A stretch of DNA of 64,000 bases from Acidimicrobiia bacterium (GTDB lineage Bacteria; Actinomycetota; Acidimicrobiia; Spongiisociales; UBA5794), in NCBI GenBank assembly GCA_036985855.1, contig BTQL01000007.1, forward strand, positions 3,060 to 67,059, given 5' to 3'. Shown here one piece after another: positions 18,710 through 27,231 of the stretch. Position numbers and translations under genes: made by a program. The notes under the pieces were generated by a model that worked only from the letters and a program-made list of their open reading frames with translations, ran no database searches and was not told the DNA's origin. The first letter of the stretch is position 1. Each line of letters opens with the position of its first letter.

Positions 18710-20452
18710 TCAGTCCCGATCGGGGGTTACGCCAAGCTGGTGAAGTGCGTTCTGCGCAACCTCGGCGAAAACAGGTGCCGCAGAAGCTCCACCGAACGAC
18801 AGGTCGGTGCCGTCCGGAAGACGACCGTTCGGCGAGTCCAGAACGACAACGACAACGACCTTCGGATCATTGAGCGGAGCCATACCTATGAAAGACGCAG
18901 TCGTTGCGTTCGAGTAGGCGCCGGCTTCAACGTCGAACTTCTGGCTCGTTCCCGTCTTTCCGCCCGCTGTGTAGTCGGTCATGCGCCCGCGTCGACCGGT
19001 GCCCTTGTCGGTCTCGACGACACGGCCGAGCATTCGACGCATCTCGGAAGCCGTATCGGGAGAAAGGACACGGCGCGACCTCGCGTGTGTCTCGATCCTC
19101 GTACCGTCAGGCCTGAGGATCTCCTCGACCAGGTACGGCTCGGTCCACACACCATCATTGGCGATCGTTGCGTACACAGCGGCCATCTGGAGCGCCGTGG
19201 TTCCGACTGCGTATCCGATCGCGATCGATGACCCGCTCGTCTGGGTCCAGATCTTCGTCGGGTCGAGTTTGCCTTGTCTTTCGCCTGCGACGTCGAGTCC
19301 TGACGCTCGACCAAGACCGAACGCCGTCAGGTACTCGTAATGCAGTTCATTTCCGAGTCGGCGTTGAATCTCGATTGTTCCGACGTTCGAGGACCTCTGC
19401 AGGACGTCTTCTACCGGCATCCAATCGGGATAACTGGCGTGGTCCTGATATACGAATTCGCCGACGGTCACGGTCTTCGGTGTATCGATCGGTGTCTGAG
19501 GGGTAACCACACCTTCCTCGATCGCTGCAGCGATCGTGATGGTCTTGAGCGTAGATCCCGGCTCGTACACGTCTGCGACCGCCCGATTGCGCAAGACGGC
19601 TGGCGTGATCTCAGATCGGTCGTTGAGATCAAGACCCGGCCAGCTCGCCATCGCAACCACCTCGCCGGTCCCCGGCAGCAGGACAACGATGGAGCCACCG
19701 ACCGCGTTCGTTGTTTGTATCGCCTTGCGAAGCGCTTGCTCGGCAATGAACTGGATCTCACGATCGATGGTCGTGATGATGTCACTACCCGGAACCGCTG
19801 GCTCGACAAGTACCTGACCCTGGGGAATCGCACGACCACCTGGGTCGACTTCGACGACGATCTTCCCTGCGCGACCCTCGAGCTCGGAGTTGAACGTCTT
19901 TTCGAGACCTTCGATACCCGAGTTGTCGTCCAGGCGGAGGAGCCCGATCACCTGGGCGGCGACCGAACCGGCCGGGTAGACGCGGAGTGGCTGATCCCTG
20001 TAGAAGACGCCGATGATCCCCGCGGCATCGACAGCATCCTCAACCACGGCCTTCATCCTTTTCTCGACCCGCATGGCGATCTCGAGGTACCTACGTTCGT
20101 CCGCTTGACCCTCGACAAACTCGGCGAGAAGATCCTCGTACGACTTGCTCGAGAATGGGGCGAGAACCGTAGCAGCAGCCTGTGGGTCATCGATCAACAT
20201 GGGGTCGACCAAGATGTTGTAACCATTGATCGTCATCGCGAGCTCGATGCCTTCCCTGTCATAGATCGTTCCACGCGGCGGATCGATGGCCCGTTCGCGG
20301 ATGCGCTGGTCGAAACCATATTCAGCATTCGCAAGCGCCTGGCTGCCCTGCAAGTCGAAGAGCCTGAATCCGATGCCACCCCAGGAAAGAATGAAAGCGA
20401 GTCCGACGAGAAGCAACCGAAGGTCGCCTCTCTTCCAGATGTGGGCATTCAT
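18710..20452 (-). CDS. ftsI: Class B penicillin-binding protein FtsI
   Basis: N-terminal TM, RGTIYDR, SxxK (PGSTLK), SxN (SSNVG), KTG (GKTGT). Alternative start 20476. Confidence 0.96.
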   Translation of the reverse strand: MNAHIWKRGDLRLLLVGLAFILSWGGIGFRLFDLQGSQALANAEYGFDQRIRERAIDPPRGTIYDREGIELAMTINGYNILVDPMLIDDPQAAATVLAPFSSKSYEDLLAEFVEGQADERRYLEIAMRVEKRMKAVVEDAVDAAGIIGVFYRDQPLRVYPAGSVAAQVIGLLRLDDNSGIEGLEKTFNSELEGRAGKIVVEVDPGGRAIPQGQVLVEPAVPGSDIITTIDREIQFIAEQALRKAIQTTNAVGGSIVVLLPGTGEVVAMASWPGLDLNDRSEITPAVLRNRAVADVYEPGSTLKTITIAAAIEEGVVTPQTPIDTPKTVTVGEFVYQDHASYPDWMPVEDVLQRSSNVGTIEIQRRLGNELHYEYLTAFGLGRASGLDVAGERQGKLDPTKIWTQTSGSSIAIGYAVGTTALQMAAVYATIANDGVWTEPYLVEEILRPDGTRIETHARSRRVLSPDTASEMRRMLGRVVETDKGTGRRGRMTDYTAGGKTGTSQKFDVEAGAYSNATTASFIGMAPLNDPKVVVVVVLDSPNGRLPDGTDLSFGGASAAPVFAEVAQNALHQLGVTPDRD

Positions 20453-20462
20453 CCCTTCGCCA

Positions 20463-20864
20463 TCATGGACGTTCACCGGTCATGGCTCTCACAGGCTGCT
20501 CGGATTCGAGGATCTGTGCATCAGCAACGAACCGGTCCATCACAACGGCGATGCGCTCTTCGGGGTAGACCAACCCGATTCGTTGGGCTTCCGTGGCGAT
20601 TCTCAGAGGGTCCTGGAGTCCGGCGAGGTCGTATCGAAGATCGAGTTGACGTGACTGCTGCACAGCGATCTCCGTTTCGATTCTGTCGAGTTCGAACGCC
20701 GTCTGGTCGAGGGAGATTCGCAGGTAGATCATCGCAAAGAAGACCGCTACCACTCCGATCGCGAACAGGACGAGAGGAAAGATTCGAGGCCCCGATGTCC
20801 GCACGCGATCGTCGCTGTCATGCCGGGCCAAGAGATCGCTGTACGGAATGGCATGCACGGTCAT
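20463..20864 (-). CDS. ftsL: Cell division protein FtsL-like
   Basis: One TM plus a short coiled coil and the RIATEAQRIGL motif; lies between rsmH and ftsI. Confidence 0.8.
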   Translation of the reverse strand: MTVHAIPYSDLLARHDSDDRVRTSGPRIFPLVLFAIGVVAVFFAMIYLRISLDQTAFELDRIETEIAVQQSRQLDLRYDLAGLQDPLRIATEAQRIGLVYPEERIAVVMDRFVADAQILESEQPVRAMTGERP

Positions 20865-21913: not shown

Positions 21914-22345
21914 TCATATTCCGTCCTCAGTCAGTACCTCCTCGATTGCGGCGTAGTAGTCGTCGGCCTCGGCGGCAACGTTCTCCCACGTCGCGGAATC
22001 CCAGATCTCGACGTGATCCGCGACACCAACAACCGTTATGTCCTTCGCCAGCCCCGCATACACCCTGAGCGCTTCCGGAATCTGACATCGGCCCGTCCTG
22101 TCGAGCGTCTGGCTCGACGCGGAGGCGAAGAATGAGCGGGAGAAGTTCCTTGCCCGACGGTCCGTGCGCGGAAGCTTCAGCACACGCTGCGCCTCGTTCT
22201 CCCACTGGTCCATGGGAAAAACGTAAAGACACCGCTCCTGCCCCTTGGTCACGACACAGCCATCGCTGAAACCCTCGCGGAACCTGGATGGCATGACAAC
22301 GCGCCCTTTTGCGTCGAGTGAATGGCTGAATTCGCCAAGGAACAT
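21914..22345 (-). CDS. mraZ: Division/cell wall cluster transcriptional repressor MraZ
   Basis: MFLGEFSHSLDAKGRV (DxKGR), second repeat LDRTGR, GVADHVEIW. Confidence 0.98.
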   Translation of the reverse strand: MFLGEFSHSLDAKGRVVMPSRFREGFSDGCVVTKGQERCLYVFPMDQWENEAQRVLKLPRTDRRARNFSRSFFASASSQTLDRTGRCQIPEALRVYAGLAKDITVVGVADHVEIWDSATWENVAAEADDYYAAIEEVLTEDGI

Positions 22346-23126: not shown

Positions 23127-23158
23127 CAGGGACCTTGGCGACCACGCTTGAGCGATGA

Positions 23159-23187
23159 TTGACCACTCAACGCGCTGGTGCGATAAT
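23159..23187 (+). promoter_or_regulatory. Sigma70-type promoter of the recombinase-like gene
   Basis: TTGACC, N17, GATAAT with a TG extended -10; followed by GGAGG/GGAAGG before ATG 23208. Confidence 0.6.
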
Positions 23188-23207
23188 CGGAGGGCAAGGA
23201 AGGCATC

Positions 23208-23732
23208 ATGAAAATCGCCGGTTATGTACGACAGACTCCAGGGAGAACGGATCCGGATTCGGCATTCAGCCAGAGCGAACGCATTCGGCGCTGGGTTGCA
23301 GACACATCCAATGAGCTCATCGCAGTGTGCCAGGACCACCACGCCGCGTCCGCACAGACCGACAGACCGGGCTTCAGAGCACTTCTCGAGATTGTGCGAT
23401 CCAACAGCGCAGACGCTGTCGTGATAGCGAACCTGTCCGCCCTCTCCCCGGACAAGATGACTCAGGAGATCATGATCCAGGATCTCCTGAGAGCGGGCAT
23501 AACGGTGATCGCCACCGATGAGACCGACATTGCGGCCTTGCAATCGAGCGAAGATGACCACGCACGCATGCTCGTTCGTGACGTTCTCGCCCGGATCGCG
23601 GAGTATCGAGAGGCCTTTGGCCTGTCGGGAGAGGTTGAACCCTCCGATCAGCCCGGTGTGATCAACGCGGACCTAACCCTCACCAAGGAAACCACCGACG
23701 TGGTAGTCGAGCTGATCACCCCGGGAGCGTAG
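23208..23732 (+). CDS. Serine recombinase (resolvase) catalytic-domain-like protein, catalytic residues degenerate
   Basis: GYVRQT (canonical Y.RVS), Q..I, D...S...DRPGF..LL, VVIANLSALS (canonical DRL.R), E-helix AEYRE; no C-terminal DNA-binding domain. Confidence 0.75.
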   Translation: MKIAGYVRQTPGRTDPDSAFSQSERIRRWVADTSNELIAVCQDHHAASAQTDRPGFRALLEIVRSNSADAVVIANLSALSPDKMTQEIMIQDLLRAGITVIATDETDIAALQSSEDDHARMLVRDVLARIAEYREAFGLSGEVEPSDQPGVINADLTLTKETTDVVVELITPGA

Positions 23733-23756
23733 GCTCCCAGGGCGACGCCACGCTCC
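23722..23756. terminator. Hairpin(s) at a convergent junction
   Basis: GGGAGC-gtag-GCTCCC, with an alternative pairing of GGGAGCGT with ACGCTCCC (23749-23756). Confidence 0.4.
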
Positions 23757-23761
23757 CACTC

Positions 23762-24640
23762 CTAGAGAGCCAGTGCAGCCCAGGTCGCTCTTCCGAGCGC
23801 AAAGACTCTCCCAGCCACAACGATGGCTGAGCCGGTCGCCAGTTCACCATCGACATCGAGGACGATGAGCACGATGTCGACTCCTTCGACCCTCCGGTCC
23901 TCTATCTCGACGACGGTCGGGTCTGGAGCAGTGGGATCGGCAAGCTTCGCTGCTGCTTTCACCACAGCCAGCTCGACTCCACCCTCGGTTGATGAGGCCG
24001 TCTCAGTGATCTCGGTTCCATCAGATGCGCCGACGGTGACGGTGATCCCTGACCGCTTCTCCTCAACGGCAACCCGTTCGATCCTGGTGATCATTGCGCC
24101 GGTAGCCCGGGGTGGTGCCGCCTTTTCGACGGGGACTGCGTGCTCAAAATCTCGTGGTCGCAAGAACGCGGGAACATCTTCGCCCTCCTCCGATCCGGGC
24201 GCTGCAGACTCCTGCAACCGATCGTCCGATTCCTGGGAGGACTCCGGCTCGGGTCCTGAGGTCTCGCGGTGGTCATCGGTGAGGTCGATGATCGCCCGCC
24301 CCAGGTCTTCGGGATCTTCGGAGTCGTCTTCGGCATCTTCGGAGTCTTCGGGCGCTTCCTGAACGAGACCAGGCTCATCCGCTTCAGATGTGAGCAGAGC
24401 GACCGTGCCGGGATCATCTTGAAGCTCGTCGCGCACCGTCGGTTCGCCCGGCAACCGGGTGTCGGTTCCGAGGCCGTGTGAGCTCAGGACGCGCCGAATC
24501 GCACCACCTACGGCCTGCTGGTCTGCCCCTTCAGCGATCCTGATACGCAGCCCGGCAGGTGCGTCCTGGGACCCGTCGACCTCGGCGCCCTCGACGCCGG
24601 GAATTCGAAGCAAGTCATCCTGCAAAGAAGTAGCGATCAC
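23762..24640 (-). CDS. Hypothetical two-domain protein with an acidic low-complexity linker
   Basis: 292 aa: compact N-terminal alpha/beta domain, E/D/P-rich linker (EDSEDAEDDSEDPED), C-terminal beta/alpha domain of about 110 aa. Confidence 0.75.
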   Translation of the reverse strand: MIATSLQDDLLRIPGVEGAEVDGSQDAPAGLRIRIAEGADQQAVGGAIRRVLSSHGLGTDTRLPGEPTVRDELQDDPGTVALLTSEADEPGLVQEAPEDSEDAEDDSEDPEDLGRAIIDLTDDHRETSGPEPESSQESDDRLQESAAPGSEEGEDVPAFLRPRDFEHAVPVEKAAPPRATGAMITRIERVAVEEKRSGITVTVGASDGTEITETASSTEGGVELAVVKAAAKLADPTAPDPTVVEIEDRRVEGVDIVLIVLDVDGELATGSAIVVAGRVFALGRATWAALAL

Positions 24641-24664: not shown

Positions 24665-24898
24665 TCACGCTGCTCGTCTCCATCGAAGATACGAAACAAC
24701 GTCGCTCGGGACAAGGGCCAAATCCGGTTGTCCAAAGGCAGTAGTCACCCGCCACTCCGTCACGCTGCGGTCAGGAATCGGAAGAAATGGGGCCCTCGCC
24801 CACCACCGTCTCGGGGCAAACGCGAGCAGCGCGCCGATCGCGGTCGGCCACAGGACAGGCCGCACCAGTATTGCAAAGAACACACGAGCATTGACCAT
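24665..24898 (-). CDS. Small hypothetical protein (Trp/Arg/Pro-rich)
   Basis: 77 aa, protein-like composition, 24 nt upstream of the 292-aa gene on the same strand, divergent from moxR. Confidence 0.6.
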   Translation of the reverse strand: MVNARVFFAILVRPVLWPTAIGALLAFAPRRWWARAPFLPIPDRSVTEWRVTTAFGQPDLALVPSDVVSYLRWRRAA

Positions 24899-25075
24899 CT
24901 CGATACGACGATAACCGACAAAACCTGACGTGTCGTCCTCCCGCGTGCCTGCAAATGCAGCAGAGACGTCCGTGTACCCTGTCCTGTCATGGTGCCGACA
25001 GAAGTCTTTCGGTCACCGAAGTTCCGATTCGCAGGTATTGTCAACACGATTCGACCCGGCATTGGAGGAGGCGAC

Positions 25076-26047
25076 GTGCCCGTGACATCCGACGAACTCG
25101 CTTGGTTCGACGACCGATTTCAAGCGGTTGCCGGAAACATCGAACGCGTCATCCAGGGGAAACGTGAATCGATCGAGCTTGTCGTGACGAGTCTCGTCGC
25201 AGAAGGCCATGTTCTCATCGAGGACGTTCCTGGGGTGGGTAAGACGCTTCTGGCGAAGTCTCTCGCACGCTCGATCGACTGCTCGTTCCAGAGAATCCAA
25301 TTCACCCCTGACCTGCTTCCATCAGACGTCACAGGTGTTTCGGTGTGGAGCAGGGAGCAAGGAACCTTCACCTTCCGCGCCGGTCCGGTCTTCGCGAACG
25401 TGCTGCTCGGTGACGAGATCAACAGGGCGAGTCCAAAGACTCAGGCAGCACTTCTCGAAGCTATGGAGGAGCGTCAGGTCACCGTTGATGGAGAAACGCA
25501 CATTCTCGACGCACCGTTCATCGTCATCGCAACACAGAACCCGATCGAACATGAGGGCACCTATCCCCTGCCCGAGGCCCAACTCGACCGATTCATGATG
25601 CGAGTGACCATGGGATACCCGGACCGCGTGAAAGAGCTCGAGATGCTTCAGACGCACGGGGAACACTCGAGTTTCGTCGATCTCAAGCCCGTTGTACACG
25701 CCGAGGATGTGATTCGGATGGCTTCGATCGCCAGGGAGATCCACGTTGCGGATGTTCTGCGCGGTTACCTCATCGATCTGGCCGAAATGACTCGATCTCA
25801 TCCCGACATTCTCCTTGGCGCGTCTCCGAGGGCGACACTGTTCCTGCAAAGAGCCGCACGTACCATCGCGGCCGCCGACGGTCGTGACTATGCAAGCCCG
25901 GACGATGTCAAATCCATTCTCACACCGGTTCTCAATCACAGACTGATCCTCCGTCCGGAAGCTCAGATGCGCGGAACGACCGTAGACGAAGTTCTCGCGC
26001 AGATTTCCGCTTCGGTTCCCGTTCCCGGGACGCGGGACGCCCGCTGA
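25076..26047 (+). CDS. MoxR-family AAA+ ATPase
   Basis: Start re-picked at GTG 25076 after GGAGGAGG. GHVLIEDVPGVGKT, RIQFTPDLLPSD, DEINRA.PKTQ.ALLEAMEE, TQNP.E.EGTYPLPEAQLDRF. Confidence 0.96.
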   Translation: MPVTSDELAWFDDRFQAVAGNIERVIQGKRESIELVVTSLVAEGHVLIEDVPGVGKTLLAKSLARSIDCSFQRIQFTPDLLPSDVTGVSVWSREQGTFTFRAGPVFANVLLGDEINRASPKTQAALLEAMEERQVTVDGETHILDAPFIVIATQNPIEHEGTYPLPEAQLDRFMMRVTMGYPDRVKELEMLQTHGEHSSFVDLKPVVHAEDVIRMASIAREIHVADVLRGYLIDLAEMTRSHPDILLGASPRATLFLQRAARTIAAADGRDYASPDDVKSILTPVLNHRLILRPEAQMRGTTVDEVLAQISASVPVPGTRDAR

Positions 26048-27231
26048 TGCCCACCTTTCGGGGCTGGGCGGCCACAGGGGCCGCCGCAGCGCTCGTACTT
26101 CTCTGGCTGGCATTCGGCGAGGACTTACTGCTCGCTTTGGCGATCTTTCTGATCACCGCCGTTGTCGGAGGAACGGCCTACGTCCGTGTATCCGGTCCGA
26201 AACTTGCGCTCCGGCGCGTCATCAATCCCGAGCAGCTCCACGACGGGGAGCGAGCTCTCGTCGACCTGTCACTGGAATCCAAGCGAAAGGTCTACCGCGT
26301 ACGGGTCGAAGACAGAGTGCACGGTCTCGGTTCGGCTACCTTCGTCGCGGATCGTGTGGCATCCGGGGACACGATGGCAGGGCGATATGAGGTGCTTTGC
26401 AGACCGAGAGGGGTTTACAAGGTAGGTCCATCGCATGTCTCCGTAACGGATCCAATCGGTTTTGCAGAAGCAACCTCAAAGGCAGGGATCGTTGATCGCC
26501 TGGTGGTGTATCCAAGGGTCGAAGACCTTACAGGCGTGCCCACCGGCCGCGGCCAGGATCAAACCATCAGCACGTCAAGAGCGAGCTTCTGGCACACGGG
26601 GGGAGAGGATTTCTTCACGCTGCGCGAGTACCAGCAGGGCGACGACCTCCGGAAGGTGCATTGGCCGTCGTCGGCAAGACGGGATCAGCTGATGATCAAA
26701 CAGCTGGAGATGCCTTGGCAATCGCGGGCGTTCATCGTGCTCGATCCCCGCGTCGAACCTCACCAATCAGCGGAGAGCTTCGAACAGGCGGTCAAAGGCA
26801 CGGCTTCGGTGCTGCGTCATCTGTTCAGAAGTGGCTACACGCCAACGATCTGGGCGGGGAGCGGCAACGGAACCGTCGTCGGGAACGCAGGGGCGTACAG
26901 ACTGGCGATGGAGGAACTGGCGACGATCGCACCTCACCGATCGTTGGATCTTCGCCACCTGATCAGCAGGCTCAGACGCAGCGGCATGGCCGGCGGAGTC
27001 CTCGTGATGGTGACGGGCAGCGCGGATGAAGCTGACCTTGCCGCCTTCCAGCTTCTCAGTCAGGATTTCTACAGAACGGTGGTGCTATCTGTCGAACAAG
27101 GGGATAATGACGAGATCCTTGGGTTCGCACGAGCTGGCGCCCTCGTTGTTCGCACGACGCCAGACGGCGCGTGGGCTGACCCTTGGCGAAACGCAATGGA
27201 GCACGGATGGTCTACCGCTTCAGCTGGATAG
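26047..27231 (+). CDS. DUF58 domain membrane protein
   Basis: N-terminal TMs, Ig-like segment, LREYQQGDDLRKVHWPSSAR motif; follows moxR. Confidence 0.93.
   Translation: MPTFRGWAATGAAAALVLLWLAFGEDLLLALAIFLITAVVGGTAYVRVSGPKLALRRVINPEQLHDGERALVDLSLESKRKVYRVRVEDRVHGLGSATFVADRVASGDTMAGRYEVLCRPRGVYKVGPSHVSVTDPIGFAEATSKAGIVDRLVVYPRVEDLTGVPTGRGQDQTISTSRASFWHTGGEDFFTLREYQQGDDLRKVHWPSSARRDQLMIKQLEMPWQSRAFIVLDPRVEPHQSAESFEQAVKGTASVLRHLFRSGYTPTIWAGSGNGTVVGNAGAYRLAMEELATIAPHRSLDLRHLISRLRRSGMAGGVLVMVTGSADEADLAAFQLLSQDFYRTVVLSVEQGDNDEILGFARAGALVVRTTPDGAWADPWRNAMEHGWSTASAG

What the first reader, a model, noticed from the sequence alone, without database searches (positions are those of the whole stretch)
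23159..23756. Apparently dead, stand-alone serine recombinase domain with its own strong promoter beside the dcw operon
Seen: a 174-aa resolvase-like fold in which the nucleophile motif YxRVS is YVRQT, the SG is AS and the DRLxR arginines are replaced (SALSP). There is no HTH or recombinase DNA-binding domain, yet the ORF is intact, with a near-consensus promoter, an RBS and a downstream hairpin. No att sites, transposase or cargo lie nearby. Known: serine recombinases need the Ser and these Arg residues. Inference: a domesticated non-catalytic protein (scaffold, regulator, or inhibitor of incoming serine recombinases via E-helix dimerisation) rather than a decaying mobile gene.
Basis: partly seen in the sequence, partly recalled or inferred. 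Interest (0 to 1): 0.7.

Follow-up and report, generated by a model that had tools for sequence, protein, structure and literature searches.

The report
Domesticated dead serine-recombinase domain gene
A small gene next to the cell-division cluster encodes the catalytic domain of a DNA-cutting recombinase that has lost its cutting residues and its DNA-binding part. It has still been kept as a single-copy core gene across one order of uncultured Acidimicrobiia, so it now does some other, unknown job.

Summary
ORF 23208-23732 (+) encodes a 174-aa protein that matches Pfam Resolvase (PF00239, E 5.7e-14). Its predicted fold matches only serine-recombinase catalytic domains. Profile alignment to active relatives puts Thr at the nucleophile Ser and LSALSPD at LDRLARD. 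In 155 family members the two Arg positions are never Arg, and the Ser position varies (T/A/S/I/V/L/P). There is no DNA-binding domain and the protein is acidic (pI about 4.6).

It is not a decaying mobile gene:
- Orthologues occur once per genome.
- They keep the order mraZ | USP | (HNH) | this gene | 292-aa orphan | small membrane protein | MoxR-DUF58 in 51 species, down to 37% identity.
- They diverge in step with their neighbours (r 0.88).
- dN/dS is about 0.13.
- The promoter (TTGACC-17-TGnGATAAT) and the RBS are conserved.

The family is confined to one order. It is the only PF00239 protein in most of these genomes.

Function is inferred only. The most likely role is a non-catalytic protein-interaction module, built from the retained N-terminal half of the E-helix and a conserved C-terminal DVVVEL strand. 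The convergent 292-aa neighbour, which has a matching presence/absence pattern, is the likeliest partner. This is a new variant of a known kind, of moderate interest.

The parts
23141..23166 (+). Two ACCAC boxes exactly 21 nt apart (23141-23145 and 23162-23166). The second overlaps the -35 hexamer. This may be a regulator site.
   Evidence: The same 21-nt spacing occurs in 13 of 27 orthologous upstream regions. The function is not tested.
23159..23187 (+). Sigma-70-type promoter: -35 TTGACC (23159-23164), 17-nt spacer with TG at 23179-23180, and -10 GATAAT (23182-23187).
   Evidence: The consensus scan gives 10 of 12 matches. The hexamers are conserved in orthologous loci L001-L031 while the surrounding DNA diverges.
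23196..23203 (+). Ribosome-binding site AAGGAAGG, 4 nt before the ATG.
   Evidence: Read from the sequence. AGGAAGGCATCATG is conserved in most orthologues.
23208..23732 (+). Coding sequence of the 174-aa dead resolvase-domain protein ('RES'). It has a beta-alpha core (residues 2-112), an E-helix (118-136), an acidic disordered linker (about 140-162) and a conserved C-terminal strand motif TDVVVELI (163-170).
23719..23742 (+). GC-rich hairpin (CCC-GGGAGC / GCUCCC-GGG) with the TAG stop codon in its loop. It lies in the 29-nt gap between the two convergent genes.
   Evidence: Folding gives MFE -27.5 kcal/mol for the 71 nt and z -1.68, with no U-tract. The terminator scan did not call it on the + strand.
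23762..24640 (-). Convergent neighbour 'P292', an orphan 292-aa acidic protein. It has a very conserved N-terminal alpha-beta-beta-alpha domain, a disordered acidic linker with an (I/V)IDLTD motif, and a C-terminal (beta-beta-beta-alpha)x2 domain. It is the candidate partner of RES.
   Evidence: No Pfam, NCBIfam, PADLOC or PHROG hit. It lies next to RES in nearly all loci. At E<=1e-8 it is found only in RES-positive genomes. The AF2 model and Foldseek point to the LeuA/CMS regulatory domain.
24665..24898 (-). Small 77-aa predicted membrane protein upstream of P292 on the same strand, divergent from moxR (context).
   Evidence: tblastn finds it at the same position in 48 loci, including loci that lack RES.

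Best explanation
SHOWN. The gene encodes a stand-alone serine-recombinase catalytic domain.
- The family has lost the Ser nucleophile, the Asp/Arg/Arg of the DRLxR motif, the DNA-crossing C-terminal half of the E-helix and every DNA-binding domain.
- It keeps R8, D36, R45, the QE of helix D and the first half of the E-helix (D..R..VR...AEYRE).
- It is an old, vertically inherited, single-copy core gene of one order of Acidimicrobiia, fixed between the dcw cluster and a MoxR-DUF58 operon.
- It has its own conserved promoter and is under purifying selection.

INFERRED. It no longer cuts or binds DNA. No conserved nucleophile remains, two of the phosphate-gripping arginines are gone, and the net charge is -8 to -15.

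MOST LIKELY MECHANISM (inference, about 35-40% on its own). It works as a pseudo-enzyme protein-interaction module.
- The retained E-helix half and core would still make recombinase-type dimers or tetramers.
- The family-wide C-terminal strand motif [DN]V[VIL][VI]E[LF], held on a variable acidic tether, would dock by beta-strand addition. The docking site could be the domain's own open sheet edge, possibly in trans, or a partner.
- The best partner candidate is the convergent 292-aa protein with a LeuA-type ligand-binding-like domain, which is gained and lost together with it.

The confidence of 0.55 is for the statement as a whole. It is about 0.85 for 'non-catalytic domesticated host protein' and about 0.35-0.4 for the interaction mechanism.
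For: Identity and loss of catalytic parts:
- Pfam match.
- Foldseek against PDB: the top 34 hits are all serine-recombinase catalytic domains, led by TP901-1 3bvp at E 8.5e-8. The viral library gives the same picture.
- hhalign residue mapping.
- Family statistics over 155 sequences: the R68 and R71 equivalents are never Arg, the S10 equivalent is variable, and R8, D43, D82, R120 and R124 are invariant.
- The clean split from canonical YxRVST/LDRLARD proteins in a scan of 1.84 billion representatives.

No DNA-binding part and acidity.

Vertical inheritance and selection:
- Synteny in 51 species loci down to 37% identity.
- One copy per genome, in only one order of the class and phylum samples.
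- Pairwise distances correlate with MoxR (r 0.88) and DUF58 (r 0.89).
- Median dN/dS is 0.13, and 0.13-0.15 for the least saturated pairs.

Expression signals are conserved. There is no mobile-element signature.

The C-terminal motif is conserved even in members at 37-48% identity.

Link to P292:
- The two genes are adjacent and convergent nearly everywhere.
- P292 is detected only in RES-positive genomes.
- One genome of the same family lacks both genes cleanly, with the order HNH | small TM | MoxR.
Against:
- The AF2 model gives the C-terminal 30 residues pLDDT below 50, so docking of the strand motif is not predicted in the monomer.
- No multimer modelling was possible.
- Mirror-tree co-evolution between RES and P292 beyond shared phylogeny is absent (partial r 0.13).
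- A possible diverged P292-like protein exists in a sister family that has no RES, so P292-type proteins may not need RES.
- The most conserved residues still line the old active-site pocket (R8, D43, R53, R120, R124). That would fit ligand binding at least as well as a pure scaffold.
- dS is near saturation (about 1.5), so dN/dS values are approximate.
Confidence: 0.55

Rival explanations
1. Ligand sensor. The retained pocket (R8, D43, R53, S80/D82, R120, R124) has been re-used to bind a phosphate-bearing or other small ligand. The domain would be a sensor or allosteric switch rather than a passive scaffold.
For: The invariant residues of the family are concentrated at former active-site positions. 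Two of the four phosphate-contacting arginines survive. The neighbour P292 also carries a domain that resembles an amino-acid-binding regulatory domain.
Against: No ligand-binding motif or family match was found. The same residues are ancestral and may be kept for fold stability. The pocket has gained acidic or neutral residues (E/Q9, S/A77).
Confidence: 0.17
2. Anti-recombinase decoy. The protein forms mixed, inactive dimers or tetramers with incoming phage or element serine integrases through the E-helix interface and blocks integration.
For: The E-helix N-terminal half and the core resemble those of active relatives of the short large-serine-recombinase type. Dead resolvase-domain genes next to integrases were noted elsewhere in this scan (unchecked leads).
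Against: It sits in a core housekeeping locus, not a defence island, and has no PADLOC hit. It shows purifying selection and co-divergence with neighbours rather than arms-race evolution. It is the only PF00239 protein in most genomes of its family. It shares only about 28% identity with the nearest active recombinases.
Confidence: 0.08
3. Partner or regulator of the HNH endonuclease that is encoded divergently just upstream in most relatives.
For: An HNH gene (PF01844/PF14279) lies head-to-head with the RES gene in 41 of 54 loci. RES is acidic, as a nuclease inhibitor might be.
Against: The window's clade (window, L001-L009) has lost the HNH gene. The only copy found in this assembly is on a contig that belongs to a mixed-in relative. 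RES is still conserved in that clade with dN/dS about 0.13. The HNH gene also exists in genomes without RES.
Confidence: 0.05
4. Still an enzyme: a recombinase or nuclease that uses Thr10 or another residue as nucleophile.
For: Thr occupies the nucleophile position in 97 of 121 close homologues. R8, D36 and R45 equivalents are retained.
Against: The position is A, I, V, P, L or F in many members. R68 and R71 equivalents are never Arg. There is no DNA-binding domain, the pI is about 4.6, and no target repeats were found.
Confidence: 0.03
5. Decaying remnant of an old mobile element with no function.
For: It descends from a mobile-element enzyme. A few genomes of the family lack it.
Against: Intact ORFs occur in 51 or more species. 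dN/dS is about 0.13. The promoter and RBS are conserved, the synteny is fixed, and a C-terminal motif is conserved.
Confidence: 0.02

Closest known systems
Catalytic domain of serine recombinases (Pfam PF00239), especially the N-terminal domain of large-serine-recombinase-type proteins such as TP901-1 integrase (PDB 3bvp) and PhiC31 integrase
   Same: It has the same fold and strand/helix order and an HMM match above the cut-off. It shares the motifs GYxR, Q...IRxW, the D at the end of beta2, RxG(L/F), QE and D..R..(I/V)R...AEY(E/R).
   Different: It has no Ser nucleophile and no D67/R68/R71. The E-helix stops at about residue 136. There is no Recombinase/zinc-ribbon or HTH domain. It is acidic, chromosomal, syntenic and single-copy, and lies in no mobile element.
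About 240-aa actinobacterial 'Resolvase + partial Recombinase (PF07508)' proteins (P0180, P0188, P0221 and others), the nearest active-looking relatives found
   Same: They give the best profile-profile match (99.65%, 28% identity over 137 columns). They share the DPxRxLIRQ / DDHxRMxVRD start of the E-helix.
   Different: They keep YxRVST and LDRLARD and carry a C-terminal DNA-binding part. One example sits in a mobile element next to a tyrosine integrase.
Bacillus subtilis YneB, a resolvase-like protein encoded in the SOS operon with the division inhibitor YneA (PMC6051672 for the operon; NCBIfam NF049883)
   Same: It is also a small chromosomal resolvase-family protein of unknown role, encoded beside cell-division-related genes.
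   Different: The match to the YneB model is 18.2 bits against a cut-off of 175, so this gene is not a member. YneB is about 211-217 aa, long enough for a C-terminal DNA-binding part. Its catalytic residues were not examined here.
Dead resolvase-domain genes next to large serine integrases in mobile elements
   Same: They are also stand-alone PF00239 domains without a nucleophile or a DNA-binding part.
   Different: Those sit beside an integrase inside mobile elements and are rare. This family sits in a core locus, usually with no other serine recombinase in the genome.
WhiA of Actinobacteria, an inactive LAGLIDADG homing-endonuclease fold re-used as a division/sporulation transcription factor (from my own knowledge; analogy only)
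   Same: It is also a mobile-element DNA enzyme fold that lost catalysis and became a conserved host gene in Actinomycetota.
   Different: The fold is different. WhiA kept and extended DNA binding, whereas this protein lost all DNA-binding parts.

Membership tests
Serine recombinase catalytic domain (PF00239), as a structural domain | HMM score above the gathering cut-off | tested here: met
   52.9 bits against a cut-off of 23.3, E 5.7e-14, residues 3-135.
Serine recombinase catalytic domain (PF00239), as a structural domain | Resolvase-like alpha/beta fold followed by a long E-helix | tested here: met
   The AF2 model has mean pLDDT 76, and 82-92 for most of the core. The top 34 PDB Foldseek hits are all serine recombinases.
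Functional serine recombinases (resolvase/invertase/integrase) | Conserved Ser nucleophile (S10 of gamma-delta resolvase) | tested here: not met
   Thr10 in the window. Across 155 members the position is T, A, S, I, V, L, P or F.
Functional serine recombinases (resolvase/invertase/integrase) | Active-site D67, R68 and R71 (DRLxR motif) | tested here: not met
   LSALSPD aligns to LDRLARD. None of 155 members has Arg at either position.
Functional serine recombinases (resolvase/invertase/integrase) | R8, D36 and R45 equivalents | tested here: met
   R8 is R in all 152 members with a residue at that position, and D43 in all 154; the rest are alignment gaps. R53 is retained in 148 of 155.
Functional serine recombinases (resolvase/invertase/integrase) | A DNA-binding domain (HTH_7, or Recombinase plus zinc ribbon, or an N-terminal MerR-like HTH) | tested here: not met
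   PF00239 is the only Pfam domain. The last 40 residues are acidic and predicted disordered. The pI is 4.56.
Functional serine recombinases (resolvase/invertase/integrase) | Cognate recombination sites or a mobile-element or invertible-segment context | tested here: not met
   No flanking repeats beyond chance-size matches and uniform GC. The chromosomal synteny is fixed in 51 species.
Functional serine recombinases (resolvase/invertase/integrase) | DNA strand-exchange activity | not testable with these tools
   This needs a biochemical assay.
YneB family resolvase-like protein (NF049883) | HMM score above the curated cut-off (175 bits) | tested here: not met
   18.2 bits, E 0.0013.
Dead resolvase-domain partners of large serine integrases (scan notes) | Encoded next to a large serine integrase inside a mobile element | tested here: not met
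   The neighbours are USP, P292, MoxR and the dcw genes. RES is the only PF00239 hit of this genome proper and of most genomes of the family.

The most novel reading that the evidence does not exclude
RES, the 292-aa acidic protein with a LeuA-type regulatory-like domain, and possibly the adjacent small membrane protein and the MoxR/DUF58 system may form an undescribed signalling module specific to this order of Acidimicrobiia. In it, a domesticated dead recombinase domain would serve as the oligomerising hub. Its tethered C-terminal strand peptide would plug into the ligand-sensing partner and couple a metabolite signal to an output near the division cluster. The two conserved ACCAC boxes in its promoter hint at control by a direct-repeat-binding regulator such as MraZ.
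Probability: 0.15. Interest if true: 0.72.

Novelty: new variant of a known kind. Interest (0 to 1): 0.55.

Why it matters
Serine recombinases are treated as mobile-element enzymes. Databases label this whole family 'recombinase family protein' or 'DNA invertase Pin-like', which is almost certainly wrong as a functional label.

The family would be a clear case of a serine-recombinase catalytic domain turned into a host pseudo-enzyme. It has been kept for a long time as a core gene beside the cell-division cluster. I found no description of such a case in the searchable literature.

It gives structural biologists a natural 'interface-only' recombinase domain. It also flags a conserved, wholly uncharacterised gene pair (RES and P292) in a widespread, uncultured marine, soil and sediment lineage. 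Its weakness is that the function is unknown and no cultured host is evident.

Tried and rejected
- Sequence-only search of the PDB, with the protein and with the family profile, found no recombinase. It found only spurious designed TIM barrels and RecA. The fold search was needed.
- PADLOC gave nothing. PHROGs gave only weak invertase/integrase hits.
- A mirror-tree partial correlation between RES and P292 was not significant (r 0.13).
- Apparent co-absence in genome G142 turned out to be an assembly gap: the contig ends about 2.9 kb past mraZ and the DUF58 gene is also missing. Only G266 is a clean double absence.
- The second RES copy in this assembly is not a paralogue. Contigs C15 and C60 carry a whole second dcw locus from a mixed-in relative.
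- Hits outside the order were canonical recombinases or a different dead form.
- The 31-nt palindrome inside the coding sequence is specific to this window and not conserved.
- Literature searches for inactive or domesticated resolvase domains found nothing relevant.

Full report
**1. What is there**

The window carries the dcw cluster on the minus strand (ftsI 18710-20476, ftsL, rsmH, mraZ 21914-22345). On the plus strand follow a universal stress protein gene (Pfam Usp, E 9e-22) and the ORF in question at 23208-23732, 174 aa. I call this protein RES.

Convergent with RES, 29 nt away, is a 292-aa ORF with no family match in Pfam, NCBIfam, PADLOC or PHROGs (P292, 23762-24640, minus strand). 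P292 is preceded on its strand by a 77-aa predicted membrane protein (24665-24898). That small gene is divergent from a MoxR AAA+ ATPase gene (24989-26047) and a DUF58 gene (26047-27231).

**2.

- RES matches Pfam Resolvase PF00239 over residues 3-135 (E 5.7e-14, 52.9 bits against a cut-off of 23.3) and nothing else.
- An AlphaFold2 model built on 34 homologues (mean pLDDT 76) gives beta1-alphaA-beta2-alphaB-beta3-alphaD-beta4, two short helices and a long helix at 118-136. Residues 142-169 are predicted disordered.
- In Foldseek against the PDB, the first 34 hits are all serine-recombinase catalytic domains: TP901-1 integrase 3bvp (E 8.5e-8), IS607-type TnpA, PhiC31, Bxb1, Sin and gamma-delta resolvase. 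The viral structure library gives the same picture.
- Plain sequence searches of the PDB miss these relatives, which shows how far the family has drifted.
- A profile-profile alignment to 13 canonical relatives (probability 99.65%, E 4.7e-25) fixes the residue mapping. GYVRQTPG aligns to GYLRVSTDRQ, so the nucleophile Ser is Thr10. 'SG' becomes 'AS'. LDRLARD becomes LSALSPD, so D67, R68 and R71 are S, A and P.
- The promoter-like site TTGACC-17-(TG)C-GATAAT lies at 23159-23187 and AAGGAAGG lies 4 nt before the ATG.
- A hairpin spans the stop codon (23719-23742). It is only marginally more stable than shuffled sequence (z -1.68) and has no U-tract.
- No repeats that could be recombination sites flank the gene, and GC content is flat at 0.57-0.63.

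**3. It is a family, and the losses are family-wide**

A word-indexed search found 150 proteins at 57-90% identity, all about 170-190 aa. Sources label them 'recombinase family protein' or 'DNA invertase Pin-like'.

A profile scan of 1.84 billion representative proteins found roughly 50 clusters (at 50% identity) of this short form down to E about 1e-17. Below that, the hits switch abruptly to 215-260-aa proteins with canonical YxRVST and LDRLARD motifs. Those carry Resolvase plus a partial Recombinase (PF07508) domain.

Over 155 members:
- The R68 and R71 positions are never Arg.
- The Ser position is T in 97 of 121 close members, but also A, S, I, V and P. In 34 distant members it is S, A, L, V, T, F or P.
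- R8, D43 (the D36 equivalent), D82, R120 and R124 are invariant or nearly so. R53 (the R45 equivalent) is kept in 148 of 155.

All 34 aligned members are acidic, with pI 4.4-5.5 and net charge -4 to -15.

A short C-terminal motif, [DN]V[VIL][VI]E[LF], follows a variable acidic linker. It is conserved even in members at 37-48% identity.

**4. It is a vertically inherited core gene, not a mobile remnant**

- In 51 species-representative genomes, all Acidimicrobiia-type MAGs, the gene sits in the same block: mraZ(-) | USP(+) | [HNH(-)] | RES(+) | P292(-) | small TM(-) | MoxR(+) DUF58(+). This holds down to 37% identity.
- In an even sample of 301 genomes of the class, 39 carry it, with one match per genome apart from the mixed bin G000 described below. 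All 39 belong to the window's order: families f1 and f3-f7, but not the large family f2 or other orders.
- In 401 genomes of the phylum, only members of this order have it. The weak hits elsewhere that I examined were a canonical recombinase and a different dead form.
- Pairwise distances of RES track those of MoxR (r 0.88) and DUF58 (r 0.89).
- Nei-Gojobori dN/dS among eight close orthologues has a median of 0.13, and 0.13-0.15 for the least saturated pairs. The values for USP, P292 and MoxR are 0.14, 0.18 and 0.05. dS is about 1.5, so the ratios are approximate.
- The -35 and extended -10 hexamers and the RBS are conserved in more than 20 species while the rest of the intergenic DNA diverges.
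- Within family f1, 35 of 41 genomes have a PF00239 hit. In most of them the only hit is the weak, 1-125-position match typical of RES. Only about eight genomes also carry canonical recombinases.
- This assembly's only two PF00239-domain hits are both of the RES type. The RES profile also picks up a 53-residue fragment at the start of contig C15.

**5. The second copy is an artefact of binning**

The assembly shows a second RES (59% identical) at the start of contig C60, and the first 53 residues at the start of contig C15. C15 continues with HNH, USP, mraZ, rsmH, ftsL and ftsI. C60 continues with P292, MoxR and DUF58. All are 51-83% identical to the window's genes. This is a second complete dcw locus, so it comes from a related organism mixed into the bin and is not a paralogue.

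**6. Neighbours that bear on function**

(a) HNH. An HNH endonuclease gene (PF01844/PF14279, about 180 aa) lies head-to-head with RES in 41 of 54 loci. It is missing in the window's clade (window, L001-L009), and the only copy in this assembly is on the foreign contig C15. RES is therefore kept without it.

(b) P292.
- It has an extremely conserved 66-aa N-terminal domain (alpha-beta-beta-alpha), a disordered acidic linker with an (I/V)IDLTD motif in the closer clades, and a C-terminal (beta-beta-beta-alpha)x2 domain with pLDDT above 90.
- Foldseek places the C-terminal domain nearest the leucine- or isoleucine-binding regulatory domains of M. tuberculosis LeuA and Leptospira citramalate synthase (E about 2e-3, TM 0.56 to 3f6g). 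This gives modest support to the separate first-reader note on that ORF.
- At E<=1e-8, P292 is found in 33 of the same 301 genomes, and every one is RES-positive.
- One genome of family f1 (G266) lacks both genes cleanly and reads HNH | small TM | MoxR.
- The other apparent double absence (G142) is an assembly gap.
- In sister family f2, a genome reads HNH | 197-aa protein | small TM | MoxR with no RES. The 197-aa protein may be a diverged P292 N-domain homologue (hhalign E 1e-3, probability 20%, so weak).
- A mirror-tree test for RES-P292 co-evolution beyond phylogeny was negative (partial r 0.13).

**7. How it most likely works**

Shown: it has a recombinase fold. It has lost the nucleophile, two active-site arginines, the distal half of the E-helix and all DNA-binding parts. 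It is acidic, shows purifying selection, has its own conserved promoter, and has a fixed core-genome position.

Inferred: it does not cleave or bind DNA.

What remains conserved falls into three groups:
- The hydrophobic core.
- The former pocket residues (R8, D43, R53, R120, R124).
- The proximal half of the E-helix, which is very similar in sequence to active relatives up to AEYRE, together with the tethered C-terminal strand.

In active enzymes the proximal E-helix and core make the dimer and tetramer contacts (established knowledge of gamma-delta, Sin and LSR structures). The most economical reading is therefore a pseudo-enzyme that still oligomerises like a recombinase domain and uses its tethered strand peptide to bind something. 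P292 is the best candidate partner because of adjacency and shared presence and absence.

I put about 85% on 'non-catalytic domesticated host protein' and about 35-40% on this particular interaction mechanism.

The rivals are:
- A ligand-sensing use of the retained pocket (about 17%).
- An anti-integrase decoy (about 8%). This is disfavoured by the core location, the purifying selection and the lack of resident recombinases.
- An HNH partner (about 5%). This is disfavoured by the HNH loss in this clade.
- Residual catalysis through Thr10 (about 3%).
- Decay (about 2%).

**8. Comparison with what is known**

It works like, and descends from, the catalytic domain of serine recombinases of the short LSR-like type. 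It fails the defining functional features of that family (Ser, D67/R68/R71, a DNA-binding domain, recombination sites). It is a structural member of PF00239 but not a recombinase.

It is not a YneB-family protein (18 bits against a cut-off of 175). It differs from the dead resolvase-domain genes noted elsewhere in this scan, which sit beside integrases in mobile elements.

An earlier agent of this scan studied the orthologous block in another genome and reached the same main conclusion. I reached mine before reading that note and re-tested its claims here. It is not independent evidence.

Literature searches found no description of such a family.

**9. Verdict**

- The function is unknown, and the mechanism above is an inference.
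- This is a new variant of a known kind, with interest about 0.55.

Noticed in passing
G000 contigs C15:1-5200 and C60:1-3900 (loci L055, L056): The assembly holds a second complete locus: ftsI-ftsL-rsmH-mraZ | USP | HNH | RES (split across two contig ends) | P292 | MoxR | DUF58. It is 51-83% identical to the window's genes. The bin is therefore mixed with a related Acidimicrobiia genome, and the 'second copies' are not paralogues.
   Followed up: yes
L019:5339-5878 (-), L045:5372-5950 (-); absent from window 23127-23207: A conserved HNH endonuclease gene of about 180 aa (PF01844/PF14279) lies head-to-head with RES in 41 of 54 loci. It has been lost from the window's clade, where USP abuts RES with an 81-nt gap.
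   Followed up: yes
window 23762-24640 (-): The orphan 292-aa protein has a nearly invariant 66-aa N-terminal domain, a disordered acidic linker with an (I/V)IDLTD motif, and a C-terminal (beta-beta-beta-alpha)x2 domain. The nearest solved folds are the LeuA and citramalate synthase regulatory domains (Foldseek E about 2e-3). It has no Pfam, NCBIfam, PADLOC or PHROG family.
   Followed up: partly
window 24665-24898 (-): A 77-aa predicted single-pass membrane protein (conserved motif ...YLRWRR near the C-terminus) lies upstream of P292 and divergent from moxR. It is conserved at this position in 48 loci, including genomes that lack RES and P292.
   Followed up: partly
window 23141-23145 and 23162-23166: Two ACCAC boxes lie exactly 21 nt apart, and the second overlaps the -35 of the RES promoter. 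The same spacing occurs in 13 of 27 orthologous promoters. The nearby mraZ promoter has CCCAC boxes at 10-nt spacing (22382, 22392, 22402), so a shared direct-repeat-binding regulator such as MraZ is conceivable. This is not tested.
   Followed up: partly
L067:1423-2025 (+) (genome G566, another actinobacterial family): A different 200-aa resolvase-like protein also lacks the catalytic residues (YVHVPSVD..., SIDDLDEDMV) and has a basic tail. It is encoded between an acyl-CoA carboxylase beta-subunit-like gene and a clpS-like gene (both named by eye from the translations, not scanned). Similar proteins of 190-220 aa appear in the representative search (for example P0250, P0177, P0211). Dead resolvase domains may have been domesticated more than once in Actinomycetota.
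   Followed up: no
L060:7304-7897 (-) (genome G007, sister family f2): Between HNH and the small membrane protein gene, where RES and P292 lie in other families, there is only a 197-aa ORF. Its N-terminus weakly resembles the P292 N-domain (hhalign E 1e-3, 30% identity over 56 columns). No RES gene is present.
   Followed up: partly
window 23461-23491: A 31-nt near-perfect palindrome (CTCAGGAGATCATG-ATC-CAGGATCTCCTGAG) lies inside the RES coding sequence over the conserved QEIMIQDL codons. None was seen in 30 shuffles of the region. It is 13 of 14 only in this window and 5-10 of 14 in orthologues, so it is probably a by-product of the codons.
   Followed up: yes
L035, L039-L043, L045, L046, L048-L051 (RES C-termini): Distant RES orthologues end in a recurrent ...(A/Q/N)AS or ...ASA carboxy-terminus after the strand motif. 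The window's clade ends in ...PGA or ...PTG. The meaning is unknown.
   Followed up: no
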